Assembly: GCA_045590195.1 (NCBI GenBank)
Contig: JAZNQN010000021.1
Location: forward strand, 1,352 to 65,351
Length of the DNA stretch: 64,000 nt
From: Clostridia bacterium
GTDB taxonomy: Bacteria; Bacillota; Clostridia; UMGS1883; UMGS1540
Reading direction: 5' to 3'
The notes beneath the pieces are model-generated. The model saw only the letters and a program-made list of their open reading frames with translations, was not told where the DNA came from and searched no databases. Of this stretch, positions 1,080-63,589 are shown one piece after another. The number at the start of each line of letters is the position of its first letter. Within the stretch, counting starts at the first letter, position 1. The translations under genes were made by a program, and so were the position numbers.

Positions 1080-1802
1080 TCAATCTATTTCTACTGTCTT
1101 TTTTACAACACTGCCTTTGTTGAACAATTTAAAATCTTCAACAAGATAGGTTCCTTTGTTGTTATGGTCAAATATAATATATTTCACATTTTCTTCACTA
1201 TCAAAATAGGTAATCACTATATAGTGCTTTTTTAATTTAATATCCTTTGCTGTAGTTCTACCACCTATAGCCGCACCTACCACACCAAAAGCCATTGCAC
1301 CAGCCAAAGCACCGCCAGCACTTGATACGGCTTGTGTATGTTTGGTTATGTTTTTTTCAATAGTAATTGAACTTATTTTTTCTTTTTTTAGTTCAAAAGT
1401 GGTTCCTTGCCCGTCAATGATGATTTTATCAGAAGTAGAAACAACTTTACATACTGCCCCTTGCATAAGTGGTAATCCCGAAACAAATGTAAGTTTATAT
1501 TTAATTTTTCTATACATTTTTTCTTTATTTTTTAATGCTGTTTCTCTATTTTGTAAAACTTTTTCTTTATAAGTTAACTTTTTTTGAGGTGCAACATTAT
1601 CTTGTGTTTCATTTTTTGTTTCTGGAACATATTTTTTCCGTGTCTTTATTATATTTATTATGCTTATAGCAAATAAGCCCAAACCTATAAATATCATTAA
1701 AATTGATTTTTCCGCAATTCCACCGCCTAATAATATAGCACCTATTATCATTGAAAATGCAGATAAAATTGCACAACCTAAAATGCTTAACCCTTTTTTC
1801 AT
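1080..1802 (-). CDS. Hypothetical membrane protein (N-terminal TM helices, C-terminal Gly/Ala-rich segment)
   Basis: 240-aa ORF. RBS agggag 7 nt upstream of ATG. Two hydrophobic helices at the N-terminus. No family recognised. Confidence 0.6.
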   Translation of the reverse strand: MKKGLSILGCAILSAFSMIIGAILLGGGIAEKSILMIFIGLGLFAISIINIIKTRKKYVPETKNETQDNVAPQKKLTYKEKVLQNRETALKNKEKMYRKIKYKLTFVSGLPLMQGAVCKVVSTSDKIIIDGQGTTFELKKEKISSITIEKNITKHTQAVSSAGGALAGAMAFGVVGAAIGGRTTAKDIKLKKHYIVITYFDSEENVKYIIFDHNNKGTYLVEDFKLFNKGSVVKKTVEID

Positions 1803-2104: not shown

Positions 2105-3439
2105 TTATAGAATAGATTTTCCTATGAGATTTATAAAATCATCATTGTTTTTTGTTGCCACAAGTTTATTAATAATTGTTTCGGTAACATCGGCAATATT
2201 TTGCGATGAAAAGGCTTTTCTTATATTCCACATTGCCTCAAGCTCTTCGGGGTTTAAAAGCAAATCTTCTTTTCTTGTTCCCGATTTATAAATATCAACT
2301 GCAGGGAAAATTCGCTTTTCGCTCATTTTTCTGTCAAGATGAATTTCCATATTGCCTGTGCCCTTAAATTCTTCAAAAATCATATCGTCCATTCGTGAGC
2401 CTGTTTCAATTAAGGCAGTTGCTAAAACTGTTAAAGAACCGCCGTTTTCAATATTTCGTGCTGCGCCGAAAAAGCGCTTTGGTTTATGAAGTGCTCCGGG
2501 GTCAAGTCCGCCTGAAAGCGTTCTTCCCGTTGGCGGAATTACAAGGTTATAAGCCCTTGCAAGCCTCGTAATGGAATCGAGTAAAATTACAACATCCCTT
2601 CCGTGTTCAACAAGGCGCTGTGCCCTCTCAAGTACAATTTCTGCAACTTTAATGTGGTGTTCCGGTGGCTCGTCGAAGGTTGAATAAATAACCTCTCCAT
2701 CAATTGAGCGCTGCATATCAGTTACCTCTTCAGGGCGCTCGTCAATAAGCAGCACAATCAGCTTTATGTTTTTATCAGAAGCTGTAATGCTTTTTGCAAT
2801 ATTTTTAAGTACAGTTGTTTTACCTGCCTTTGGCGGCGCAACAATAAGCCCTCTCTGGCCGTAGCCTATTGGGGCAATAAGGTCAATAAGTCTTGTAGAA
2901 AAATCCATTCTGCCTGATGCTAGCTTAATTCTCCTGTCAGGATAAATAGGCGTTAAAGTATCAAAAGGTTTTCGATTTATCGCCTTATCAAGCGAGTCGC
3001 CATTTACTGTGTCAACATAAATAAGGGCAGGAAAGCGCTCATCTTTTTTAAAGCGTGCCTTTCCCCAAACCTCGTCGCCGGTTTTTAAATTAAATCTTCT
3101 AATCTGAGTTGGTGATACGTAAATATCTTCGGCAGTACTTAAATAATTATCGCCACGCAAAAAGCCAAACCCGTCAGAAAGAACTTCGAGTATGCCTGAA
3201 ACCTGGCTAACGCCTTCTTTGCGAGGCGGCCCAATTTCGGGCATTTCCTTCTCCTGTTGCGACTCTTCCATTTTTGGCAAAAGCTTTTGTTTTTCCTCTT
3301 CTTCAAGGCGTTTTTTCTCGTCGTTTATTCTTTTAATTTCATCGGCAAGTTCGCTTTTTTTCATTTTGTACGCACTTTTAATATCAAGCTCCTTTGCAAT
3401 TTCACGAAGCTCAATAAGCGACATTTCGTTATAATTCAT
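2105..3439 (-). CDS. rho: Transcription termination factor Rho
   Basis: 444 aa. Rho N-terminal HeH domain ([33 protein letters not shown]) with an Asn/Glu/Lys-rich insertion, cold-shock-like RNA-binding region (FGFLR), Walker [17 protein letters not shown], and a C-terminal ATPase core. Confidence 0.95.
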
Positions 3440-39967: not shown

Positions 39968-39989
39968 ATGGCTTTCAAGTACGAAATAG

Positions 39990-40175
39990 ATGCAAGATAT
40001 TTTAGCTAAATTTTGCACATTCGTGCAAAGCGAAATTATTGCTCCGCAATAGCTAAATTGTTTCTTGCGAAACAGCTAAATTAAATTCGCCTTTAGCGTG
40101 TGTAGCACATTTAGCTGCCGCAGGCAATTTAGCTGAACTTGTTCAATTTAGCTCGCCGCCAGGCGAATTTAGCTG
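39990..40175. repeat. Array of 7 copies of the palindromic half-site AATTTAGCT (3 as AGCTAAATT, then 4 as AATTTAGCT), each followed by a short GC-rich palindromic spacer
   Basis: Copies at about 40003, 40051, 40074 (AGCTAAATT) and 40108, 40127, 40145, 40166 (AATTTAGCT). Reverse copies are spaced 18-21 bp apart. Spacers are gccgcaggc / gaacttgttc / cgccgccaggcg. Joined, the half-sites give the perfect palindrome AATTTAGCTAAATT. Confidence 0.6.
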
Positions 40176-40217
40176 AAAAAAAAGACAGATTTCTTTGTCG
40201 AAATCTGTCTTTTTTTC
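40176..40217. terminator. Bidirectional hairpin terminator (tRNA-Arg 3' side); part of a ~33-nt repeat also found at 61748
   Basis: aaaaaaaagacagatttc-tttgtc-gaaatctgtcttttttt, an 11-bp stem flanked by A8 and T7. Confidence 0.75.
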
Positions 40218-54315: not shown

Positions 54316-57300
54316 TTATAAATCAAATTCTTCAGATAATGTAACGCTTCTCATATTTCTTTCCCATACAAAAACCTTGGCATACGATGCGTTGAGAATG
54401 TTTGATTTCGGCAAACAAAGGGTTGTTCCTTCTGCACTTAATGTTTTTGAAGTAAATAACAGCATTTGTCTGTATTTGTCATAAACTGCCACATATACAG
54501 CTGCATCTGAAACATAATCTTCAACAGATACATCAAAATACCAATTTAAACCATCTTCATTAAAATCAACGCTCATTGATTTTAATTCATTACCCTCTGT
54601 CAAGGTGTATGTTGCTGCAAAAATGTCACTATCATCTATTCCATCTTTTACGGCAATTGCCTTAATGGTGGTTAAACCTGTAATTTCAATCGGGCCGCTG
54701 TAAATGGCAGATGCTCTGCTTGGAACAGTGTTGTCTGTGGTATAGTGTATAACTGCACCGTCAGTTTCTGTTGTAAGCTCTACATATGTACCAACCGGAA
54801 CCGCTCCTGCAGTAGGCGATGCTTTCGGCTTAGCTGCCTTTTCAATGCTGTAAACAAATCCAGCCGTAGCACTGTCATTCATACCGGCTTTTACCGCATA
54901 TGCAATTATAAAAGTATCTTCTTCAACCGTAATTTCTCCGGTGTATCTGATTCTCGAGCTGCTTTCAACGATACACGGACATGTACCGTCAAGTGTATAA
55001 TAAATTTCTGCCCCGTCAGTTTCTGTTGATAAAGTTATTGTAGTTCCCCTCTTAACAGCACTGCCACTTGCAATATTTGCTTTAACTTTTGCACATGCGT
55101 TTGAAGTATCTGTTACATTTCCTACATTTGCTCTTGTTGATGATTTTATATCTGTTCCGTCAAGAGAAATTTCTATCGAGCCCTCACCCGGCAGCTTACC
55201 ACTCAGCATTACCAGCGCTTTTCCGTTTTCGTCAGTTGTAATGGTGTCGTTTACCACACCAACTATGCTCGGCGACATTGATTTTACAGAAAGTGTCTTG
55301 TTTGCTCCGGCCGATTTCGGCGAAACTGAAATTTCAAGCAATGTGCCCGAATTGTACAAAATATCAACGCTTGAAGCTACTACTATACTTTCAGGTCTTG
55401 CTCCAACAGTCTGTGACAGTTCCGATTTTCCTGACATGGTTTTACCTGCGTAATTCTTCACATTACTTATCTGTACTGCCACATCTTCTGCCAAAGTACT
55501 ATCCGGAATAAATTTAAATACAGATGCATACTTATTTACTTTTTTATAATCATATTCTGCATTAACCGGCTCGATTGTTCCTGCCACCATAGCACCACCG
55601 GCTGTAACTTTCACATTATCGACATTGACAGAATTTATATTCATATACTGACTAAAAATAATCTGAATTTCATCGTCATATATATTTACCGTTTCAACCG
55701 TCGGTGCCGATTTTGAAACAATTTCCGTATTTACTTCTGTTTGCGGAGGTGGAACAGGCAAATACCCATTTTCATCCGCCGCAACATCTTTTTTGGTATT
55801 AGTGTTATAATATCCTTCTTTAGAGAATTTAACCAGCCATTGACCTGCAGGCACATCCCAGTGGAACATACCGTTGACATCAGTGTACAAGGGATTTACC
55901 TGGTCATATTCATCAGCATTCCAGAAAATTTCTTCTTTAGCATCACCTGCTACTCCGAACTCATCCAGAGGATAATCATAGTAGTAACATTCTGCTTTTA
56001 CACCTTCAATTCTGTTTGAAGGAACTGCCTCATAAACATATCCTGATGGATCAAGAATATTTGGTGTCTTGAAGTTAGGTGTCGGCATTTTGTCTCCATT
56101 GCCTCCTCCGCCACCGCCATTCGGGCCGCAATTTTCACCCGGCTGACAAGGCTTACATTCAGGAGAACTATGGCCTGCCCATGTTGCTCTGTATATCTGA
56201 TGGTCAAATTTGAAAAGCCATAAATTAATATTCAGTAAATATGCAGCTTTAACTGACGCTACAATCTGCATGGCTCTGCCTAATAACTTCTGTAACGACT
56301 CCTCCCCGCATTTGCTCAGATTATCCAGAAGTTTTTCTGCTTCTTCGTTACCGGAGTTGCAAATTTCCATAATGTTGTCATAACAGGATTGTGCTGTTTG
56401 TAGAATGTTTTCCTGATTGTTTGAATATGGCCAGCATTCATTATTGGCTATGGCATCATTGAATTCCTGCATTTTTTGCTCTGCCTGTTCTTTGGCATTA
56501 TCGTACAAAAGCCCCAAAGGATCAAGTAAATCTATTATATCATCAAGCTCATAGAAAAGTTGAAAATCGCTATACAAATCCATCGACACCGCACTCTCAT
56601 AACGAACAGTTGAGAGTGTCTTTGTTTCAGAATCGTAAACTGTCTTGATAGTGTACCCCGGCATCGACTCTGTTTTCAAATAGATTTTTTCGCCGTTTAC
56701 AACCAAAATTTCTTCGTAGCTTCCGTCATTTTCAAAATTTTCAATAATCTCTGATGATACTGTAATGTATCTGTCTTCCAGCGAATTTTCTTTTGCAGAA
56801 ATTTTTATAGTTGCGCTTCCAATACCGTCTTCCGTGATACTGCTTTCTATCACATCGGCACTGAAATAATGCTCAATTACATCAATTGATTCTTGTGAAG
56901 GATTTTTTGCAACCTCTGCTTTTAAATCTGTAATCATCTGTTCATCTGCAATAAAAGGTCGCTCATCTTCGTAAACCATTTTATAATCAACAGCTATTTT
57001 TTGCGGAATTTCGTGCGATGTAAATCGGGCGTGCCCCAGCCACGAAAGCGTAACTTCATCATATATCATAGGAATTTTGCGTATTTCCCCGTCATTACCC
57101 TGCGTTACTACATATACGTCAGATAACACGGTATCATCGCCACCGGTAAATTCGACTCTAAAAGTAAAATCGGGATAATTAGGCCAATAAAGATACGCAT
57201 CTAAAGGTTTTGGATTTTTATAATCAATTTCAGTTACATATTCCGCAAGAGTCATTGTAGATGGCAAATGTGCCTGGTTTATCATCGTCAGCTTTGAAAC

Positions 57301-60300
57301 CTCAAAATATGAAGCATCGTAAATCAGCGGCATCTCATCGGTTTCAATTCTTTCTGTTCTATCTACTCCTGTTTTTTCGATTATTGCATAAATTTTATGC
57401 TGGGAATATGAATACGGTTTATCAAGCTCAATTTGCAGTGCCCATGTTCCTACCTTGTTGGCTTTTGTAGTTCCTACTTCAACGCCATTATCATAAACAG
57501 TAACCATACCTTCAGGCATCGTAAAGCCACTTATATAAACCCGCGTACTTCCTGTTTTTTCAGGAACAATAATCTTACTTGCACTTACCTCAATACTTGC
57601 TGTACCTATAGGCTGAATAGCGTTGCCCCCGTCATTATCAAGGCTTAAATATGCATCTATATTATAAGTATTCTTCTCAGTAGCATAAATATAAAATCTT
57701 ACAACTGCTTTATTGAGATCAGTTCTGATTTTTAACTGCCCATTTCCAAGACTATATGCAGTGCCTTTGCCGTTTATAGTAACAGAACCCGGCACGAAAG
57801 CAATACCATCCGGTATATCAATTGTTACCTCACGGGCAGAAAGTGTATATTTGGGATCAATTTCATATTCTGCACGCAGAACTATATACTTTCCGGTTGC
57901 CGCTGATGGAGTGTTGGCAGTAAATCCGGTGTTTTCAGGAAGAGTATAATAAAGCTTACTTTCATCAAAATCAGGAACAACAACACCGGATAATTCTGAA
58001 ATTTCGCCATTTTTAACCACTGCATTTTTTGTTACATAGTCAACATTTAAAACCAGTCCGAGTTCATCCATTTTACCAAGATTTGAAACTTTACGCAAAA
58101 CATTGTTTTTCTTTATGAATAAAAGCGTATAATCTCCGTTTTCAACTTCGTCAGTTTTTCCTGCGTCTTCCACCGTGTATGTTTTGATAAATTCACCACG
58201 AGAATCAAATATCATCATATAATTGATGTTGTTTCCGCTTATTTCCGATACTTCAATATGTCCGTTTTCAACAAATAAGATTTCACCGCTTCCCATCTTA
58301 TCAGAATTAAGAACTACCTCAACAGGATTTGCTGTCATCTTTTGATTTTCATCAGTTGCAGTAATCTCTACAAGATCACCTGCACTCACTTCATCTTCAC
58401 CAATGATAAGCTCATAATTTTGCACTTCAAAATTGGTAATTTCTTTATTTTTCGTTTTATTTTTAACTACAAAACTTATATCATCTATATCTGAAAAAGA
58501 AACTATATCTGCTGTTTCGCCGGCTTTTTTCGCCGCTTTTTTCTTAAATGTCAAAGAAATTTTATTTGACGGAAGTTTTGTAAGAGATATCTCACCCATG
58601 TTAATATTTTCCTGTTTTGTCTTTCCGTCAATTACAGTTACCGTTTTGCTACAATATCCCAAAGCAGACAGTTTTGCACTACTTGAAACATTTGAAACGT
58701 TGGCTGAATACTCGCCATTGATGTCAGTTGAAGTATTTACTGTCTTAGTATATTCATCATTATATTTCTGCGTAAATGTAATATCAGCATCTACAATAGG
58801 TTCTCCATCACGATTTTGAACTTTTCCTGTTACACAAACCGTATCTATTTTCTCAAGCTTACACTTAATGTCATAGTTGTTATCTTCTATAACAAGCTCC
58901 TCACGCAAATGCGGATAATATACGTATGACAATTCTTCGCCCAAAATAATCTCATATTCATACGTTTTATCATCTTCACCTGCAAATGATCTACCTGTTG
59001 CTATAGCAGTATCCGAGCCTTTTTCATACCAATTAACGGTATAATCTCCGGCTATTTCTTCGCCATTTTCATCAATCGGTGTTATAAATGCCATTCCCTG
59101 ACCTATATACCGGTACTTGATATTTCTTTCCTTTGCAAAGTTCTCTGCATAAGAGTCGGCATCAACAATCCATATTATATCGTCACATTTTTCAAATGCG
59201 CTTTCTTCTATCATTGTTACAGTTTCCGGTATATAAATGGTTTTAAGATTTGTACATCTTTCAAAAATTCCGTATTGGAGATATGTTATGTTATACGAAA
59301 GATTTACCTGGCTGAGTTTTTCGCAACCATAAAATGCAAGCGCACCCAATTCTTTAACACTGTCCGGAAAAGTTATTTCTTCAAGGCTCGTGCAACTATA
59401 AAACGCATTGCCTCCGATAGTTTCAGTATTTTCGCCAAATGTAACAGTCTTTAAATTTTTACACTCGTAAAATGCTGCATACCCAATCGACCCCACATTA
59501 TCAGAAACAGTCATACCGGTAATACCGCTAAAACCTGCAAATGCATAATCTTTGACTTCGCTCATACTGCCAGGAATAACGATATTATTTGTTAACACGC
59601 CGTTTATATATAATTCCTCAGCCTGAGAAAGCGGATTTGCTTCCGAACCTTCAAATGTGATTTTAAGCCATGATTCCAGGTCGTCTATATATACCTTTGA
59701 CAGTGAATTACAACTGCCAAAATTGTAATTATTTATTGAGGTTACACTTGAGGGGATATGTATCTCGGTGAGACTGCTGCATCCTTGGAAAACCGAATAT
59801 GGAATCGCTTTTAAACCGTTTTTAATAACCACCTTTTCAAGTCCACGGCATTTTCCAAAAGCACCTTCACCCAAGGCTGTACCCCCGTCAACTCCTTCTT
59901 TACCGCTATCATCATTTCCGGTAGTGCCCAAACTTCCGGGCAATGTAATTTCTTTAATGGAAGAACAACCGTAAAAAGCATTTCCACCTATGCTTTTTAA
60001 CCCCTCCGGCAGAATTATTTCATTAAGTTTTGAACATCCGTAAAATGCCGTATGGCCTATGCTTTCAATTTTATTTCCTATATCAGCATTTTCTAAATTG
60101 CTGCACTCCCAAAAAGCACTGTTACCTATACTTTTCACACTGTCAGGAATTGTTATATCAGTAAGATATTTGTATCCGTAAAAAGTATTTTTTTTAATTT
60201 CGGTAACAGTGTCCGGAACAGTTATATCAGTTACAAGCTCGTTTTCAATATAAAGCTTACATGCAACATCATTGCCTTCATCCAAAAGTGCAATTTCATC

Positions 60301-61545
60301 ATAGTTATAATGTTTTGCATTTAGCAAACAACAGTCAAATTCTATGCCGCACCACGCTTCAATGCTGGTTATATACACACTCTCAAGCTTATGATTCATT
60401 GGAAATGCATTATATCCAATCCTATTTACACTTTCAGGTATATGAACACTCTTCATCCCCGAAAAATTGCAAAATGCATTATTTTTAATCTCATCAGTTC
60501 CTTCCGGAATAACAATGTTTTCAGTAAGTACACCACCTATATATAACTCATCTGCCACATTCAATGGGTTTGAGTTTTCGCTTTCAAAATAAATACTGCA
60601 CCATGAAGCTACATTATCTATGTATACTTTTTCCAAAGAATAACACTGATAAAAAGCATAGTTTTCTGCTGATGTTACACTGGCAGGTATTGTTATTTCC
60701 TTTAAGTTATCACAACTTGAGAAGGCAGAAAAAGGTATTGCAGTTACACCGTTTAATATAACTGCTTTTCCCAAACCGGTACATTCTGTAAAAGAATTAC
60801 TGCCCCACACTTCAACACTACCCGGTATAGTAATTTCGCTAATACCTGTACATCCCTTAAATGCATTGCTTCCGATAGATTTAAGCGAATCGCCAAGGTC
60901 TAAACTCTTTAAGGAAGTACAATCGTAAAACGCATCGCCTCCGATAACTTCGAGATTATCACCAAAATTTATTGACTCTAACTCGGTATGTTCCCTGAAT
61001 GCTCTATCTGCTATTTCGGTCACAGTTTCTGGCAATGAATAACTGATAAGTTTTTTTGCATACGGAACCACCATGAGCTTTGTTATATTCTTATCAAACA
61101 AAATTCCGTCAATACTTTTTAAATACTGGCTATTTTCGTCAACGAGTATTTCTGTAAGATTCTCTGTTCCGTAAGAATCAAAACCGAATGTAGATCTTAC
61201 ATTTTCAGAAATTGTAATCGAGGTTACATTTGGAGCATAGAAAGAGCTGATTTCCACAACAGGATATCCAGCATATTCCGAAGGCAATATAATTGCTCCT
61301 GACAAAGTATCTGAAGATACAGATATCCCTTTACCTATCAGTTGCCAATTATCATCGTACACATCATAAAAAGAATATGCCGGATTCATTGGTTCTTCAG
61401 GCGTTGGTTCTTCCGGCATTGGCTCATCTGTTGTTATATCTCTACCTGTTTCTATATCATCATAAGTTTCTGCGAGGGAGCTAATCGGTATCATCGATAT
61501 TATTATAGATAAAATCAAAGCCATACTGATTATTCTTTTTTTCAA
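54316..61545 (-). CDS. Giant (~2410 aa) secreted surface protein with two blocks of BspA-type leucine-rich repeats (LRR_5), Ig-like/BIG2 domains and two chitobiase/hexosaminidase-C-like domains
   Basis: Start assigned to TTG 61543-61545 (MKKRIISMALILSIIISMIPISSLA signal peptide), 7 nt after AGGAGGTG. The ORF-track ATG at 61587 precedes the RBS. Repeats have the form IPxSVxxIGxxAFxxCxxLxxIxIP. GGGGGGNG linker. TDGAEIYYTLDGTCP and TDGAVIHYTTDNTVP domains. Confidence 0.8.
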   Translation of the reverse strand: MKKRIISMALILSIIISMIPISSLAETYDDIETGRDITTDEPMPEEPTPEEPMNPAYSFYDVYDDNWQLIGKGISVSSDTLSGAIILPSEYAGYPVVEISSFYAPNVTSITISENVRSTFGFDSYGTENLTEILVDENSQYLKSIDGILFDKNITKLMVVPYAKKLISYSLPETVTEIADRAFREHTELESINFGDNLEVIGGDAFYDCTSLKSLDLGDSLKSIGSNAFKGCTGISEITIPGSVEVWGSNSFTECTGLGKAVILNGVTAIPFSAFSSCDNLKEITIPASVTSAENYAFYQCYSLEKVYIDNVASWCSIYFESENSNPLNVADELYIGGVLTENIVIPEGTDEIKNNAFCNFSGMKSVHIPESVNRIGYNAFPMNHKLESVYITSIEAWCGIEFDCCLLNAKHYNYDEIALLDEGNDVACKLYIENELVTDITVPDTVTEIKKNTFYGYKYLTDITIPDSVKSIGNSAFWECSNLENADIGNKIESIGHTAFYGCSKLNEIILPEGLKSIGGNAFYGCSSIKEITLPGSLGTTGNDDSGKEGVDGGTALGEGAFGKCRGLEKVVIKNGLKAIPYSVFQGCSSLTEIHIPSSVTSINNYNFGSCNSLSKVYIDDLESWLKITFEGSEANPLSQAEELYINGVLTNNIVIPGSMSEVKDYAFAGFSGITGMTVSDNVGSIGYAAFYECKNLKTVTFGENTETIGGNAFYSCTSLEEITFPDSVKELGALAFYGCEKLSQVNLSYNITYLQYGIFERCTNLKTIYIPETVTMIEESAFEKCDDIIWIVDADSYAENFAKERNIKYRYIGQGMAFITPIDENGEEIAGDYTVNWYEKGSDTAIATGRSFAGEDDKTYEYEIILGEELSYVYYPHLREELVIEDNNYDIKCKLEKIDTVCVTGKVQNRDGEPIVDADITFTQKYNDEYTKTVNTSTDINGEYSANVSNVSSSAKLSALGYCSKTVTVIDGKTKQENINMGEISLTKLPSNKISLTFKKKAAKKAGETADIVSFSDIDDISFVVKNKTKNKEITNFEVQNYELIIGEDEVSAGDLVEITATDENQKMTANPVEVVLNSDKMGSGEILFVENGHIEVSEISGNNINYMMIFDSRGEFIKTYTVEDAGKTDEVENGDYTLLFIKKNNVLRKVSNLGKMDELGLVLNVDYVTKNAVVKNGEISELSGVVVPDFDESKLYYTLPENTGFTANTPSAATGKYIVLRAEYEIDPKYTLSAREVTIDIPDGIAFVPGSVTINGKGTAYSLGNGQLKIRTDLNKAVVRFYIYATEKNTYNIDAYLSLDNDGGNAIQPIGTASIEVSASKIIVPEKTGSTRVYISGFTMPEGMVTVYDNGVEVGTTKANKVGTWALQIELDKPYSYSQHKIYAIIEKTGVDRTERIETDEMPLIYDASYFEVSKLTMINQAHLPSTMTLAEYVTEIDYKNPKPLDAYLYWPNYPDFTFRVEFTGGDDTVLSDVYVVTQGNDGEIRKIPMIYDEVTLSWLGHARFTSHEIPQKIAVDYKMVYEDERPFIADEQMITDLKAEVAKNPSQESIDVIEHYFSADVIESSITEDGIGSATIKISAKENSLEDRYITVSSEIIENFENDGSYEEILVVNGEKIYLKTESMPGYTIKTVYDSETKTLSTVRYESAVSMDLYSDFQLFYELDDIIDLLDPLGLLYDNAKEQAEQKMQEFNDAIANNECWPYSNNQENILQTAQSCYDNIMEICNSGNEEAEKLLDNLSKCGEESLQKLLGRAMQIVASVKAAYLLNINLWLFKFDHQIYRATWAGHSSPECKPCQPGENCGPNGGGGGGNGDKMPTPNFKTPNILDPSGYVYEAVPSNRIEGVKAECYYYDYPLDEFGVAGDAKEEIFWNADEYDQVNPLYTDVNGMFHWDVPAGQWLVKFSKEGYYNTNTKKDVAADENGYLPVPPPQTEVNTEIVSKSAPTVETVNIYDDEIQIIFSQYMNINSVNVDNVKVTAGGAMVAGTIEPVNAEYDYKKVNKYASVFKFIPDSTLAEDVAVQISNVKNYAGKTMSGKSELSQTVGARPESIVVASSVDILYNSGTLLEISVSPKSAGANKTLSVKSMSPSIVGVVNDTITTDENGKALVMLSGKLPGEGSIEISLDGTDIKSSTRANVGNVTDTSNACAKVKANIASGSAVKRGTTITLSTETDGAEIYYTLDGTCPCIVESSSRIRYTGEITVEEDTFIIAYAVKAGMNDSATAGFVYSIEKAAKPKASPTAGAVPVGTYVELTTETDGAVIHYTTDNTVPSRASAIYSGPIEITGLTTIKAIAVKDGIDDSDIFAATYTLTEGNELKSMSVDFNEDGLNWYFDVSVEDYVSDAAVYVAVYDKYRQMLLFTSKTLSAEGTTLCLPKSNILNASYAKVFVWERNMRSVTLSEEFDL

Positions 61546-61667
61546 ATTAAGCACCTCCTGAAAATAAAAAATTATTTCATTGTGCAACCATAGAGGTTTA
61601 CTACTATTTTCCTAATCTTTGCCCCATTGGCTCTGTTCTATAGTATTCGCATATTATCCACAACCTT

Positions 61668-61752: not shown

Positions 61753-61786
61753 AAAAAAGACAGATTTCAATAAAATCTGTCTTTTT
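61753..61786 (-). terminator. Hairpin terminator of the 61825-63363 gene; second copy of the ~33-nt repeat seen at 40166
   Basis: aaaaagacagatttc-aataa-aatctgtcttttt. The 5' flank gcgaattcagctaaaaaaagacagatttc matches gcgaatttagctgaaaaaaaagacagatttc at 40163-40193. Confidence 0.7.
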
Positions 61787-61824
61787 CACGAAATAGCCAA
61801 ATGGTTTAGATGCCACTTCTACTC

Positions 61825-63363
61825 TTATAAATTTAACAGTTTTATATCAAATCTTCCGTTTTGCTTGAAATATCCTAAATTAAATATTTCTCCAGGATGT
61901 TTCTTTGCCCAGATTTTTGCTACTGTCTTTAATTCTTCAGCGGTAATCAATAGAATTTGTGTATCATTATTCAAAGAAAAATCAACACATTCTTGTATGC
62001 TTTGAGGTGTGAAATCAGGTGCAATTACCATAAACACGGTTACATCTTTATCTGATGTTTTTATGTATCTTTCAAACTGTTGAATGTGATCTTTTAAATT
62101 AACTGCTGTTTCCTTTGATTTATTATCCCACATAATATACTTATCTTTAAAGGATAATTTACCATCTGGATGTTCAGAACCGGTCAAAGTCAATGGCTTA
62201 TTTAATAACATTTTTTCAAACAAATAATTCGTTGCATCTTCAAATAAGTGTTCACATTGTAAATCTTTTTCAATGATATTATTTGCTCTCAGATTTTTCA
62301 AATCTCTATTTGCAAGTTGATTATAAAACGCAATAAGTTTTTCTCTTTCATCTTCCGTTTTAATTTCTATTCTTCTCATTGAATCATAGTATTCGAGAAT
62401 CCTATCAATTAACGCAACCTTATTCCCTGATACATTTAACCCAATATCACTACACCAAGCTGACAGCATTGTAACATCCAGTCCATCTCGTGGCGAAAAT
62501 CCACCGATTAAATTAGACGGTTGTATGGATTTCAAAATAATGTCTTTCAATTCGTTTACAGTAGGATTATTTGATATTTCAATTTTAGCTTTTGAAAAAT
62601 ATTGACTTGCTTTATTTACTATATCAATAAGATACTGTTTCTTTGTTTTCTTAACCACATAATCAACAAGTTTCTCATATCCATATGCTCGTATTTCAAT
62701 ATTATAATATTTTCTAATACATTGAGCTATATCGTCAGGAATCATATCACACATAACGCCATCAGAATTCTTTATCGCCACAATTAATCCTTTTGCTTGT
62801 AATACTTTTCTTGTATCTTCTATATCATCATAGGTGTGTAAAACATTTTCAGGAGTTGGAAATCTTCCTGATTTAGCTTCAAGCATATGAAACTCTTTAA
62901 TGGAAATCGACAAATACTTTCTTAGTGTTTCCAAAAGATTCTTCTCGTCAACTGAAATATCATCATTGTGCGCCCAAGCAGCATCTATCATATGCTTAAA
63001 CAGTGCAAAATCTTTAGATATTTTGCTTTCGTCAAAATTATTCGATTCATCAACAATAGATTTTTCATAGTTTAAAACCGCAGAATCAGTATCTTTGGTT
63101 GATGAAATAAAATCATCTTGATTTAACAAATAATCACGCAACAATATTGGTGCAATAATCCTAACTGCACGATTTGAATCAAGTTTAATTTCTTCTAATC
63201 TATTGCTAATATTATCGAAAGAAGTATATTGATTTGCTGTTTTCTTTAAAAAATCTTTGATCTCATCAAACTCTAATCGTCTATAATCGGCAACATAAGC
63301 AGAAGCAACTCTCTTTGCTATTGTAATATTAGGAATTTGTTCAACAAATTTAATAAAATCCAT
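61825..63363 (-). CDS. Orphan SAP/HeH-motif protein with C-terminal PD-(D/E)xK nuclease-like signature (candidate defence/restriction-like nuclease)
   Basis: Start set to ATG 63361-63363 (MDFIKFVEQ), 8 nt after GAGGTGG. 513 aa. SAP-like DGLDVTMLSAWCSDIGLNVSGNKVALIDRILEYY. C-terminal CEHLFED ... EHPDGKLSF ... IMWDNKSKE (E / PD / DxK spacing). Markedly AT-rich compared with neighbours. Confidence 0.55.
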   Translation of the reverse strand: MDFIKFVEQIPNITIAKRVASAYVADYRRLEFDEIKDFLKKTANQYTSFDNISNRLEEIKLDSNRAVRIIAPILLRDYLLNQDDFISSTKDTDSAVLNYEKSIVDESNNFDESKISKDFALFKHMIDAAWAHNDDISVDEKNLLETLRKYLSISIKEFHMLEAKSGRFPTPENVLHTYDDIEDTRKVLQAKGLIVAIKNSDGVMCDMIPDDIAQCIRKYYNIEIRAYGYEKLVDYVVKKTKKQYLIDIVNKASQYFSKAKIEISNNPTVNELKDIILKSIQPSNLIGGFSPRDGLDVTMLSAWCSDIGLNVSGNKVALIDRILEYYDSMRRIEIKTEDEREKLIAFYNQLANRDLKNLRANNIIEKDLQCEHLFEDATNYLFEKMLLNKPLTLTGSEHPDGKLSFKDKYIMWDNKSKETAVNLKDHIQQFERYIKTSDKDVTVFMVIAPDFTPQSIQECVDFSLNNDTQILLITAEELKTVAKIWAKKHPGEIFNLGYFKQNGRFDIKLLNL

Positions 63364-63589
63364 ATTATACCACCTCGAAGATATTATATCATAATAAGCA
63401 TAAATTGTCAAAAGAAAAACCGAATGATAAAGACATGGCATCTAAATCATTCGGTTTCTATGGCTTCCCTCGCTCCTTATTTTCTCCGAATTCGCCCTCG
63501 TTTCATCTGCCACCGGCAGCACTCGGCCTCATTCCAGTTAACAGCCGCTGCGGCTGTTTTGCGAAAGCTTTGATTAAAGTTCAAATTAA

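What the first reader, a model, noticed from the sequence alone, without database searches (positions are those of the whole stretch)
61825..63363. AT-rich orphan gene: SAP/HeH motif plus C-terminal PD-(D/E)xK nuclease signature, a candidate single-gene defence nuclease
The 513-aa product has about 300 N-terminal residues of no recognisable family. A helix-extended-helix SAP-like motif follows (LSAWCSDIGLNVSGNKVALIDRILEYY, similar to the Rho N-terminal HeH in this window). A C-terminal ~120 aa carries the nuclease pattern: acidic helix (CEHLFED), then HPDG, then about 13 residues, then WDNKSK (E...PD...DxK). The gene is conspicuously more AT-rich than its flanks. It has its own RBS and terminator. 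It sits between a giant surface-protein gene and a small hypothetical gene, and its 3' terminator carries a repeat shared with the tRNA locus. I found no methyltransferase partner in the window. A Shedu-like, Mrr-like or orphan Type II/IIS restriction-like nuclease, or an abortive-infection effector, would all fit.
Basis: partly seen in the sequence, partly recalled or inferred. Interest (0 to 1): 0.72.

Follow-up and report, generated by a model that had tools for sequence, protein, structure and literature searches.

The report
Stand-alone FokI-type nuclease with SAP domain
This AT-rich gene encodes a DNA-cutting enzyme built like the restriction enzyme FokI but with no protective methylase partner; it belongs to a small, strongly conserved, horizontally spread and uncharacterised family that is most likely a single-gene barrier against foreign DNA.

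The parts
61825..63363 (-). CDS, 512 aa plus stop: wHTH-HeH-SAP-linker-FokI-type nuclease
   Evidence: ORF list. Homologs are nearly all 512 aa and start at the same Met. AF2 model has mean pLDDT 90.1.
63383..63411 (-). Sigma-70-type promoter TTGACA-17-TATAAT (TG-extended)
   Evidence: 12 of 12 consensus match. Conserved in homologous loci that have unrelated flanks.
63370..63376 (-). Ribosome-binding site GAGGTGG, 6 nt before the ATG
   Evidence: Read directly from the sequence. Invariant in aligned homologous loci.
62689..63363 (-). N-terminal module, aa 1-225: helical bundle (about 1-110), then a winged helix (about 117-220) that includes the conserved AW..DD.IS.DE..LL motif
62374..62688 (-). 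aa 226-330: first, degenerate HeH (about 226-287) and canonical SAP (Pfam aa 297-326 = nt 62386-62475)
   Evidence: Pfam SAP 28.8 bits, above the cutoff. Distant members show two tandem SAP-like motifs. PDB profile hits to Ku70 and other SAP domains.
62278..62373 (-). aa 331-362: flexible linker and short helices between the DNA-binding module and the nuclease
   Evidence: The only segment with pLDDT below 50 is residues 333-336. pTM is 0.65 for the whole chain and 0.86 for the N-terminal part alone.
61828..62277 (-). aa 363-512: FokI-type PD-(D/E)xK cleavage domain. E375 (62239-62241), D400 (62164-62166), D413 (62125-62127), K415 (62119-62121)
61754..61786 (-). Intrinsic terminator hairpin (14-bp perfect stem, 5-nt loop, T-run); near-copy of the terminator after tRNA-Arg(ACG) at 40177-40216
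   Evidence: I11. The consensus terminator scan did not list it.
63417..63457 (-). Hairpin AAACCGAATGAT-N17-ATCATTCGGTTT immediately upstream of the -35 box; terminator-like insulator at the left edge of the conserved cassette
   Evidence: I9. Conserved in L014-L016 and L048. Cassette homology to the closest loci starts at 63456-63463 in six of seven.
61797..61820 (-). Right-edge motif (window copy CATCTAAACCATTTGGCTATTTCG), inverted relative to 63431-63454; a copy of a dispersed 24-mer
   Evidence: Inverted repeat I2, 24 nt, 83% complementary. The motif is present at cassette ends in the clade with at least 91% identity. Exact copies occur after unrelated sequence in metagenomes and in L017.

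Best explanation
The gene encodes a solitary DNA endonuclease with the modular layout of a Type IIS restriction enzyme. An N-terminal DNA-binding module (helical bundle, winged helix, a degenerate HeH and a SAP motif) is tethered by a flexible linker to a FokI-type PD-(D/E)xK cleavage domain with catalytic residues E375, D400, D413 and K415. These points are shown. By analogy with FokI, the DNA-binding module would bind DNA, and the tethered catalytic domain would then cut at a distance, probably after pairing with a second catalytic domain. This step is inferred. No methyltransferase or other partner recurs beside the gene. It is horizontally spread, lower in GC than its hosts and lodged at variable sites, and distant relatives sit in toxin-antitoxin or defence islands and beside a prophage integrase. 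Its most likely role is therefore a single-gene, methylase-independent barrier to foreign DNA. In effect it would be a Type IV-like or otherwise non-self-directed restriction nuclease whose target is a DNA modification or DNA feature absent from the host chromosome. The role is inferred and the target is unknown.
Against: No PADLOC model matches consistently. In the close clade, neighbours are mostly ordinary metabolic or housekeeping genes; defence-type neighbours recur in only 2-5 of 148. dN/dS of 0.02-0.07 over the whole protein is stronger constraint than I would expect for a defence gene and is more typical of core functions. The family is almost absent from phages and plasmids. No known modification-reader domain (SRA, EVE, YTH, or a DpnI-like winged helix) was identified. 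The mechanism of self-protection is unknown. No experiment exists.
Confidence: 0.55

Rival explanations
1. Selfish mobile nuclease cassette. The roughly 1.68-kb unit (insulating hairpin, promoter, gene, end motif) would spread for its own sake. The FokI-type nuclease would cut at or near CCA-ending targets (tRNA gene 3' ends or the dispersed 24-mer) and the cassette would be copied in by repair. Alternatively the cassette would be moved in trans by an unlinked recombinase or an IS200/IS605-like transposase.
For: DNA homology to the closest loci has sharp limits, w63456-63463 to about w61780 in six of seven. Left junctions in the closest clade read ...CCA| followed by TAGAAACC or a close variant, including the 3' CCA of tRNA-Arg in L016 and of a tRNA-like 3' half in L020. 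A 24-nt inverted repeat lies just inside both ends. A co-oriented tRNA lies within 1 kb upstream in 24 of 80 loci, against my rough expectation of 1.5-3. Insertion sites differ at 96-98% protein identity. L101 and L108 diverge exactly after ...TTCCA|. Strong purifying selection fits a nuclease that must stay active to spread.
Against: 10 of 11 exact metagenomic copies of the end motif are next to unrelated sequence, so it is a lineage-wide dispersed repeat rather than a private element end. The repeat is absent below about 91% identity although the gene is still mobile. Each of the 80 listed loci comes from a different assembly, so there is no sign of proliferation. No empty or filled pair at one site was found. 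A nuclease aimed at tRNA gene ends would keep cutting its own host. Distant members look like cargo of islands rather than autonomous units.
Confidence: 0.15
2. Classical Type IIS restriction endonuclease whose cognate methyltransferase is encoded elsewhere in the genome.
For: Overall layout and fold are closest to FokI and N.BspD6I. FokI's own winged helix is not methyl-specific (PMC11037411). Only 64 kb of this genome and at most 10 kb flanks elsewhere were inspected.
Against: From general knowledge, restriction and modification genes are nearly always adjacent. None recurs in 93 loci. The one MT-A70 gene seen, in L006, is about 6.6 kb away within an integrase island. The single-gene cassette moves between distant hosts, which would be lethal without a co-transferred methylase. 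The recognition module is under strong purifying rather than diversifying selection.
Confidence: 0.1
3. Housekeeping or semi-core DNA-processing enzyme of these Clostridia, for example in repair, recombination, nucleoid or competence-related DNA handling, using SAP and winged-helix domains to bind chromosomal DNA.
For: dN/dS of 0.02-0.07 across all domains, with dS of 0.45-0.68. Uniform length of 512 aa. A strong constitutive-looking promoter. Mostly ordinary chromosomal neighbours in the close clade. From memory, SAP domains in eukaryotes serve chromosomal organisation and repair, as in Ku70 (the hit itself is).
Against: Carried by only about 0.1% of species representatives. No conserved synteny. 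GC is 0.10 below the flanks across hosts whose flank GC ranges from 0.29 to 0.61. Scattered across Clostridia, Kiritimatiellae, Desulfuromusa, high-GC soil bacteria and a haloarchaeal plasmid. Found as island or prophage cargo in distant members.
Confidence: 0.1
4. Regulated suicide (abortive-infection) nuclease. A non-specific cleavage domain would be held inactive by the N-terminal module until a phage cue releases it, killing the infected cell.
For: FokI-type domains are intrinsically non-specific and, from memory, are sequestered by the recognition domain until DNA is bound. The flexible linker fits this. Neighbours in distant members include toxin-antitoxin and Abi-type genes. WYL regulators are adjacent in some loci.
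Against: No sensor domain (NTPase, CARF/SAVED, TPR or similar) was detected. The whole N-terminal module looks like a DNA binder. There is no antitoxin-like partner.
Confidence: 0.08

Closest known systems
FokI (Type IIS restriction endonuclease; Pfam PF09254 FokI_cleav_dom)
   Different: No adjacent methyltransferase. The spacing between the two aspartates is 13 residues rather than 17. The N-terminal module has no sequence similarity to FokI's D1-D3 and carries HeH/SAP motifs that FokI lacks. The query itself scores below Pfam's cutoff (15.5 against 25 bits). Recognition sequence and cut position are unknown.
Nt.BspD6I / R.BspD6I (Type IIS nickase and its small catalytic subunit)
   Different: From memory, BspD6I works as a large nicking subunit plus a separate small subunit and belongs to an R-M system. 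Here there is one polypeptide and no partner gene. Whether this enzyme nicks or makes double-strand cuts was not tested.
Winged-helix fusion endonucleases / DpnI-like Type IV (m6A-dependent) enzymes (PMC11037411)
   Same: Stand-alone enzymes with a modular winged-helix sensor plus nuclease and no neighbouring methyltransferase. This is the logic used in that paper to predict modification dependence.
Eukaryotic SAP-domain proteins (Ku70, PIAS/SIZ1, DEK) and bacterial Rho N-terminal HeH
   Same: The same helix-extended-helix motif, with significant Pfam and PDB profile matches. Rho with its HeH is also encoded in this window at 2105-3439.
   Different: In those proteins SAP is not fused to a restriction-type nuclease. 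Bacterial SAP-nuclease fusions of this kind were not found in the searchable literature.

Membership tests
FokI cleavage-domain family (PF09254) / PD-(D/E)xK superfamily | FokI-type alpha/beta nuclease fold | tested here: met
FokI cleavage-domain family (PF09254) / PD-(D/E)xK superfamily | Sequence match to the Pfam model above its gathering score | tested here: inconclusive
   The query scores 15.5 bits against a cutoff of 25, E 0.012. However, 13 of 40 family members match at E <= 0.01, best 9e-8, and most database homologs carry a precomputed PF09254 call.
FokI cleavage-domain family (PF09254) / PD-(D/E)xK superfamily | Catalytic D...D-x-K (FokI D450, D467, K469) plus an upstream acidic helix | tested here: met
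   E375, D400, D413 and K415 are at least 90% conserved in 40 members at 21-48% identity. One member, P0133, has lost D-x-K. hhalign pairs them with FokI residues (weak alone at E 0.046, and the FokI sequence is from memory).
Type IIS restriction-modification system | Cognate methyltransferase encoded next to the endonuclease | tested here: not met
   No recurrent neighbour of any kind in 93 loci. No methyltransferase family among the 25 most recurrent families of 148 near neighbours. No methyltransferase motif in the 64-kb window.
Type IIS restriction-modification system | Sequence-specific recognition with cleavage at a fixed distance; transient dimerisation of cleavage domains | not testable with these tools
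   Only the architecture is seen: DNA-binding module, flexible linker and nuclease.
SAP domain (PF02037) | Helix-extended-helix motif matching the Pfam model above its cutoff | tested here: met
   28.8 bits against 23.9 at aa 297-326. 24 of 40 members match, best 1e-15. Helices 297-306 and 315-327 in the model. PDB profile hits to Ku70 SAP at E 2e-4.
Type IV (modification-dependent) restriction enzymes | Stand-alone nuclease without a methyltransferase | tested here: met
Type IV (modification-dependent) restriction enzymes | Recognised modified-base reader domain (SRA, EVE/ASCH/YTH, Mrr_N or DpnI-type winged helix) and cleavage only of modified DNA | tested here: inconclusive
Shedu (DUF4263) | DUF4263 nuclease domain | tested here: not met
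Mrr / NucS | Mrr_cat or NucS catalytic domain | tested here: not met
Autonomous mobile element (IS, homing endonuclease gene) | Private terminal repeats or a defined target, and presence/absence polymorphism at one site | tested here: inconclusive
   Sharp cassette limits and CCA junctions. However, the end motif is a dispersed repeat, there is no recombinase, and no empty/filled pair was obtained.

The most novel reading that the evidence does not exclude
The gene is the engine of a new kind of minimal mobile cassette. A FokI-type, cut-at-a-distance nuclease with a wHTH/SAP reader would recognise CCA-ending sites (tRNA gene 3' ends and a dispersed 24-mer 3'-flank motif) and so home its own 1.7-kb promoter-gene unit into the 3' flank of tRNA genes. 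That would be a Type IIS-style homing element unrelated to the known homing-endonuclease families.
Probability: 0.1. Interest if true: 0.85.

Novelty: new variant of a known kind. Interest (0 to 1): 0.55.

Why it matters
If confirmed, this would add a compact single-gene, methylase-free restriction-like system to the known defence repertoire. It is absent from PADLOC 2.0 and from the searchable literature. It would also be a bacterial example of a SAP/HeH motif used as part of a nuclease's targeting module. The FokI cleavage domain is the cutting domain used in ZFNs and TALENs, so a naturally solitary, very strongly conserved relative with a different linker and DNA-binding module could be of practical interest. 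The recurrent placement just 3' of tRNA genes, without an integrase, raises a separate question about how single-gene islets move.

Tried and rejected
1. Shedu, Mrr, NucS and RecB-like families: no sequence hits and lower or absent fold matches, so rejected.
2. PADLOC over the query and 40 members: nothing consistent.
3. PHROGs: nothing significant.
4. PDB by sequence with the single protein: nothing. The profile finds only SAP domains.
5. 'Terminal inverted repeats mean a private transposon': weakened, because the 24-mer is a dispersed motif next to unrelated sequence.
6. Empty-site test at this locus: the DUF6809 protein and the nuclease itself are not on record by exact sequence. The surface-protein N-terminus has no ortholog above about 36% identity. 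There is no protein-level synteny between the window and any fetched locus.
7. AFDB fold search: the library was unavailable.
8. Rfam on the gene flanks and on the tRNA locus: only the tRNA passes its threshold.
9. Conserved partner gene: none.
10. Phage or plasmid origin: 1 viral contig of 2.9 million and 1 distant archaeal megaplasmid hit.
11. Literature: three successful searches found no description of a SAP-FokI family; a fourth failed on term syntax.

Full report
OBSERVATION. The ORF at 61825..63363 lies on the minus strand and encodes 512 aa. A longer 538-aa reading from an upstream ATG is not supported, because homologs are almost all 512 aa and start at MDFIKF/MNF. A perfect TTGACA-17-TATAAT promoter lies at 63411..63383. 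GAGGTGG sits 6 nt before the ATG. A 14-bp perfect hairpin with a T-run follows the stop at 61754-61786. The gene's GC is 0.296 against 0.403 +/- 0.030 for 42 window ORFs, the lowest in the window. The terminator is a near copy of the one after tRNA-Arg(ACG) at 40177-40216, with 17-nt exact matches of both arms and the same AGCTaAATTCGC tail. The flanking genes are a 2423-aa leucine-rich-repeat surface protein and a DUF6809 protein.

NOT AN ORPHAN. A search of 5.8 billion proteins gave at least 527 homologs. The best 120 are 77-96% identical and nearly all exactly 512 aa. An exhaustive HMMER pass over 1.84 billion 50%-identity representatives gave 261 hits at E <= 1e-3, with the full-length architecture (about 500-610 aa) kept down to about 22% identity. 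The sources name them only 'SAP domain-containing protein' or 'hypothetical'.

WHAT THE PROTEIN IS. SAP passes Pfam's cutoff (28.8 against 23.9 bits, aa 297-326). It is called in 24 of 40 diverse members, and the family profile hits the Ku70, DEK and SIZ1 SAP domains in the PDB. FokI_cleav_dom is sub-threshold in the query (E 0.012) but reaches E 9e-8 in other members.

In 40 members at 21-48% identity to the query, E375, D400-G401, D413, K415, Q429, F430 and Y433 are at least 90% conserved. One member, P0133, has lost D-x-K. A profile comparison with the FokI cleavage domain pairs HPD400G with KPD450G, WD413NK415 with VD467TK469, and NL...QF.RYI with NL...MQRYV.

CONTEXT AND EVOLUTION.
- No partner gene. 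After clustering all ORFs of 93 loci, the most recurrent neighbour family (an ABC transporter) occurs in 12 loci. A Pfam census of 148 near neighbours gave 167 families, with no methyltransferase among the 25 most recurrent. The top ones were 23S_rRNA_IVP four-helix-bundle proteins (5), sigma-70 domains (4), ABC transporters (3), DUF559 (3) and WYL/WCX (2). The window has no N6/N4-methyltransferase motif.
- Variable position. The gene lies between DUF6809 and the surface protein in the window. It follows murA-ftsQ-ftsZ-tRNA-Asp at 96% identity, lies between His_Phos and MBOAT at 92%, and between an AlbA_2/HATPase gene and RbsD at 80%.
- Sharp cassette limits. DNA homology to the closest loci is confined to about w63463..w61780 at 88-92% identity.
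- Transfer. In L016 the same-anticodon tRNA-Arg gene is only 84% identical to the window's, while the cassette is 92% identical, which argues for horizontal transfer.
- Patchy and wide distribution. About 201 of 185,579 species-representative genomes carry a relative. The carrier MAGs are labelled as several Clostridia families and as Desulfuromusa, with further members in Kiritimatiellae, high-GC soil bacteria and a Natrinema megaplasmid. Labels come from MAG record titles, so binning errors are possible.
- Composition. Gene GC is below flank GC in 97% of 90 loci, mean -0.10.
- Selection. dN/dS is 0.02-0.07 in the N-terminal, SAP and nuclease parts alike, with dS of 0.45-0.68 between proteins 96-98% identical.
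- Island contexts in distant members. These include an OLD-TOPRIM nuclease, HD, MT-A70, integrase, rve and TIR genes. Others are HicAB, DUF4160/DUF2442 and Unstab_antitox, and a ResIII helicase, SocA_Panacea and AbiEii. The single viral-contig copy sits directly beside the integrase.
- Other close-clade neighbours. Some loci have WYL, DUF559 or YhcG neighbours.

tRNA ADJACENCY AND CASSETTE ENDS. A co-oriented tRNA gene lies within 1 kb upstream in 24 of 80 genome loci (hand count), involving at least 11 different tRNA species. My rough expectation from tRNA density in the remaining flanks is 1.5-3. In addition, 31 of 80 contigs end within 1.5 kb upstream, against 12 within 1 kb downstream. That fits repeated tRNA or rRNA arrays upstream of the gene.

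In the clade with at least 91% identity, the left junction reads ...CCA| followed by TAGAAACC or a close variant. In L016 the CCA is the 3' end of tRNA-Arg, and in L020 it follows a sequence that reads as a tRNA 3' half, although ARAGORN called no tRNA there. The right end reads ...GGCATCTAAACCATTCGGCTCTTCCA|, and the two ends are inverted copies of each other.

The 24-mer is not private to this gene, however. Three copies lie in L017 intergenic regions. Ten of 11 exact metagenomic copies lie after unrelated sequence, and most are followed by what looks by eye like a terminator hairpin. L101 and L108 diverge exactly after ...TTCCA|. The ends therefore mark recombination junctions, but the mechanism is unresolved.

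MECHANISM.
- Shown: an active-site-intact FokI-type nuclease is tethered by a flexible linker to a composite DNA-binding module. It is encoded alone and is horizontally mobile.
- Inferred from the FokI paradigm (established knowledge): the enzyme binds through the N-terminal module and cleaves at a distance, probably after dimerisation of catalytic domains.
- Inferred from the absence of a methyltransferase and from the logic in PMC11037411: the target is probably a modification or DNA feature absent from the host, giving Type IV-like behaviour.
- Unknown: the nature of that target and the means of self-protection.

RIVALS. The alternatives are a selfish homing-type cassette (0.15), a classical Type IIS enzyme with an unlinked methylase (0.10), a housekeeping DNA-processing enzyme (0.10) and an abortive-infection nuclease (0.08). 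The evidence for and against each is given in the Rival explanations section.

NOVELTY AND VERDICT. The kind is known (FokI-type nuclease, modular restriction-like enzyme). The combination is not described in PADLOC 2.0 or in the searchable literature: wHTH, HeH and SAP fused to a FokI domain, solitary, very strongly conserved, and often adjacent to tRNA genes. I rate it a new variant of a known kind, with interest 0.55. Its interpretation is narrowed to a FokI/Type IIS-like solitary nuclease, and the defence role remains probable but unproven.

Noticed in passing
window 61797-61820 and 63431-63454; L017 3959, 6680, 10131; L099-L109: An almost invariant 24-mer, CATCTAAAYCATTCGGCTCTTCCA, recurs after many unrelated sequences in related gut Clostridia, mostly just before what looks like a terminator hairpin. 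Sequences diverge exactly after its ...TTCCA end (L101 against L108). No Rfam family matches. It could be a 3'-UTR element, a REP/PATE-like repeat or a recombination site.
   Followed up: partly
L013-L092 (for example L016 5828-5904, L024 287-363, L047 491-566): The nuclease gene lies within 1 kb downstream of, and co-oriented with, a tRNA gene in 24 of 80 genomes, involving at least 11 different tRNA species and no integrase in the cassette. 31 of 80 contigs break within 1.5 kb upstream.
   Followed up: partly
window 40177-40216 versus 61754-61790: The terminator after tRNA-Arg(ACG) and the terminator after the nuclease gene are near-identical, including the AGCTaAATTCGC tail. It looks as if the cassette had been inserted between a CCA-ending sequence and a tRNA-type terminator and the unit then moved or was duplicated.
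   Followed up: partly
window 39981-40177 (minus strand); L057 363-599: The stretch after the tRNA-Arg terminator is rich in repeated AGCTAAAT(T) units. It is 77% identical to a stretch between tRNA-Asn and the nuclease gene in L057. No Rfam family reaches its threshold.
   Followed up: partly
window 1080-1802 (minus strand): A second strongly AT-rich ORF (240 aa, GC 0.299, GC3 0.187) has no Pfam family. It lies next to rho (2105-3439) and may be another foreign gene.
   Followed up: no
window 54316-61587 (minus strand): The 2423-aa leucine-rich-repeat (BspA-like) surface protein has no close ortholog among 5.8 billion proteins. The best match over its N-terminal 700 aa is about 36% identical, so this genome is poorly represented in public data.
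   Followed up: partly
L026, L028, L029, L031, L043, L055 (upstream); L070, L072 (downstream): A small four-helix-bundle gene (Pfam 23S_rRNA_IVP, about 115 aa) sits 42-170 nt upstream of the nuclease gene in six genomes, in the same orientation and 57 nt away in four of them. It sits just downstream in two more. This is the only near-recurrent adjacent gene.
   Followed up: partly
P0133, P0134, P0135, P0138, P0150 (alignment A3): One family member has lost the D-x-K motif (LYTAVAS in place of WDNKSK). Four members carry an N-terminal extension of about 100 aa that is charged and of low complexity, and in P0135 it starts with a Zn-ribbon-like CxxC...CxxC.
   Followed up: no
L093 8001-9518 and 9681-11042: The only viral-contig homolog (47% identity) lies directly beside the integrase of an integrative element that also encodes a replication initiation protein. 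This is the typical position of accessory or defence cargo.
   Followed up: partly
L022, L052, L053 (66-122 nt upstream); L041, L046, L051, L089: WYL/WCX regulators (BrxR/CapW-like) lie directly upstream of the nuclease gene in three loci, with a fourth cluster member about 3.1 kb upstream in L041. DUF559 (Vsr-like) nuclease genes lie within 1 kb in four loci.
   Followed up: partly
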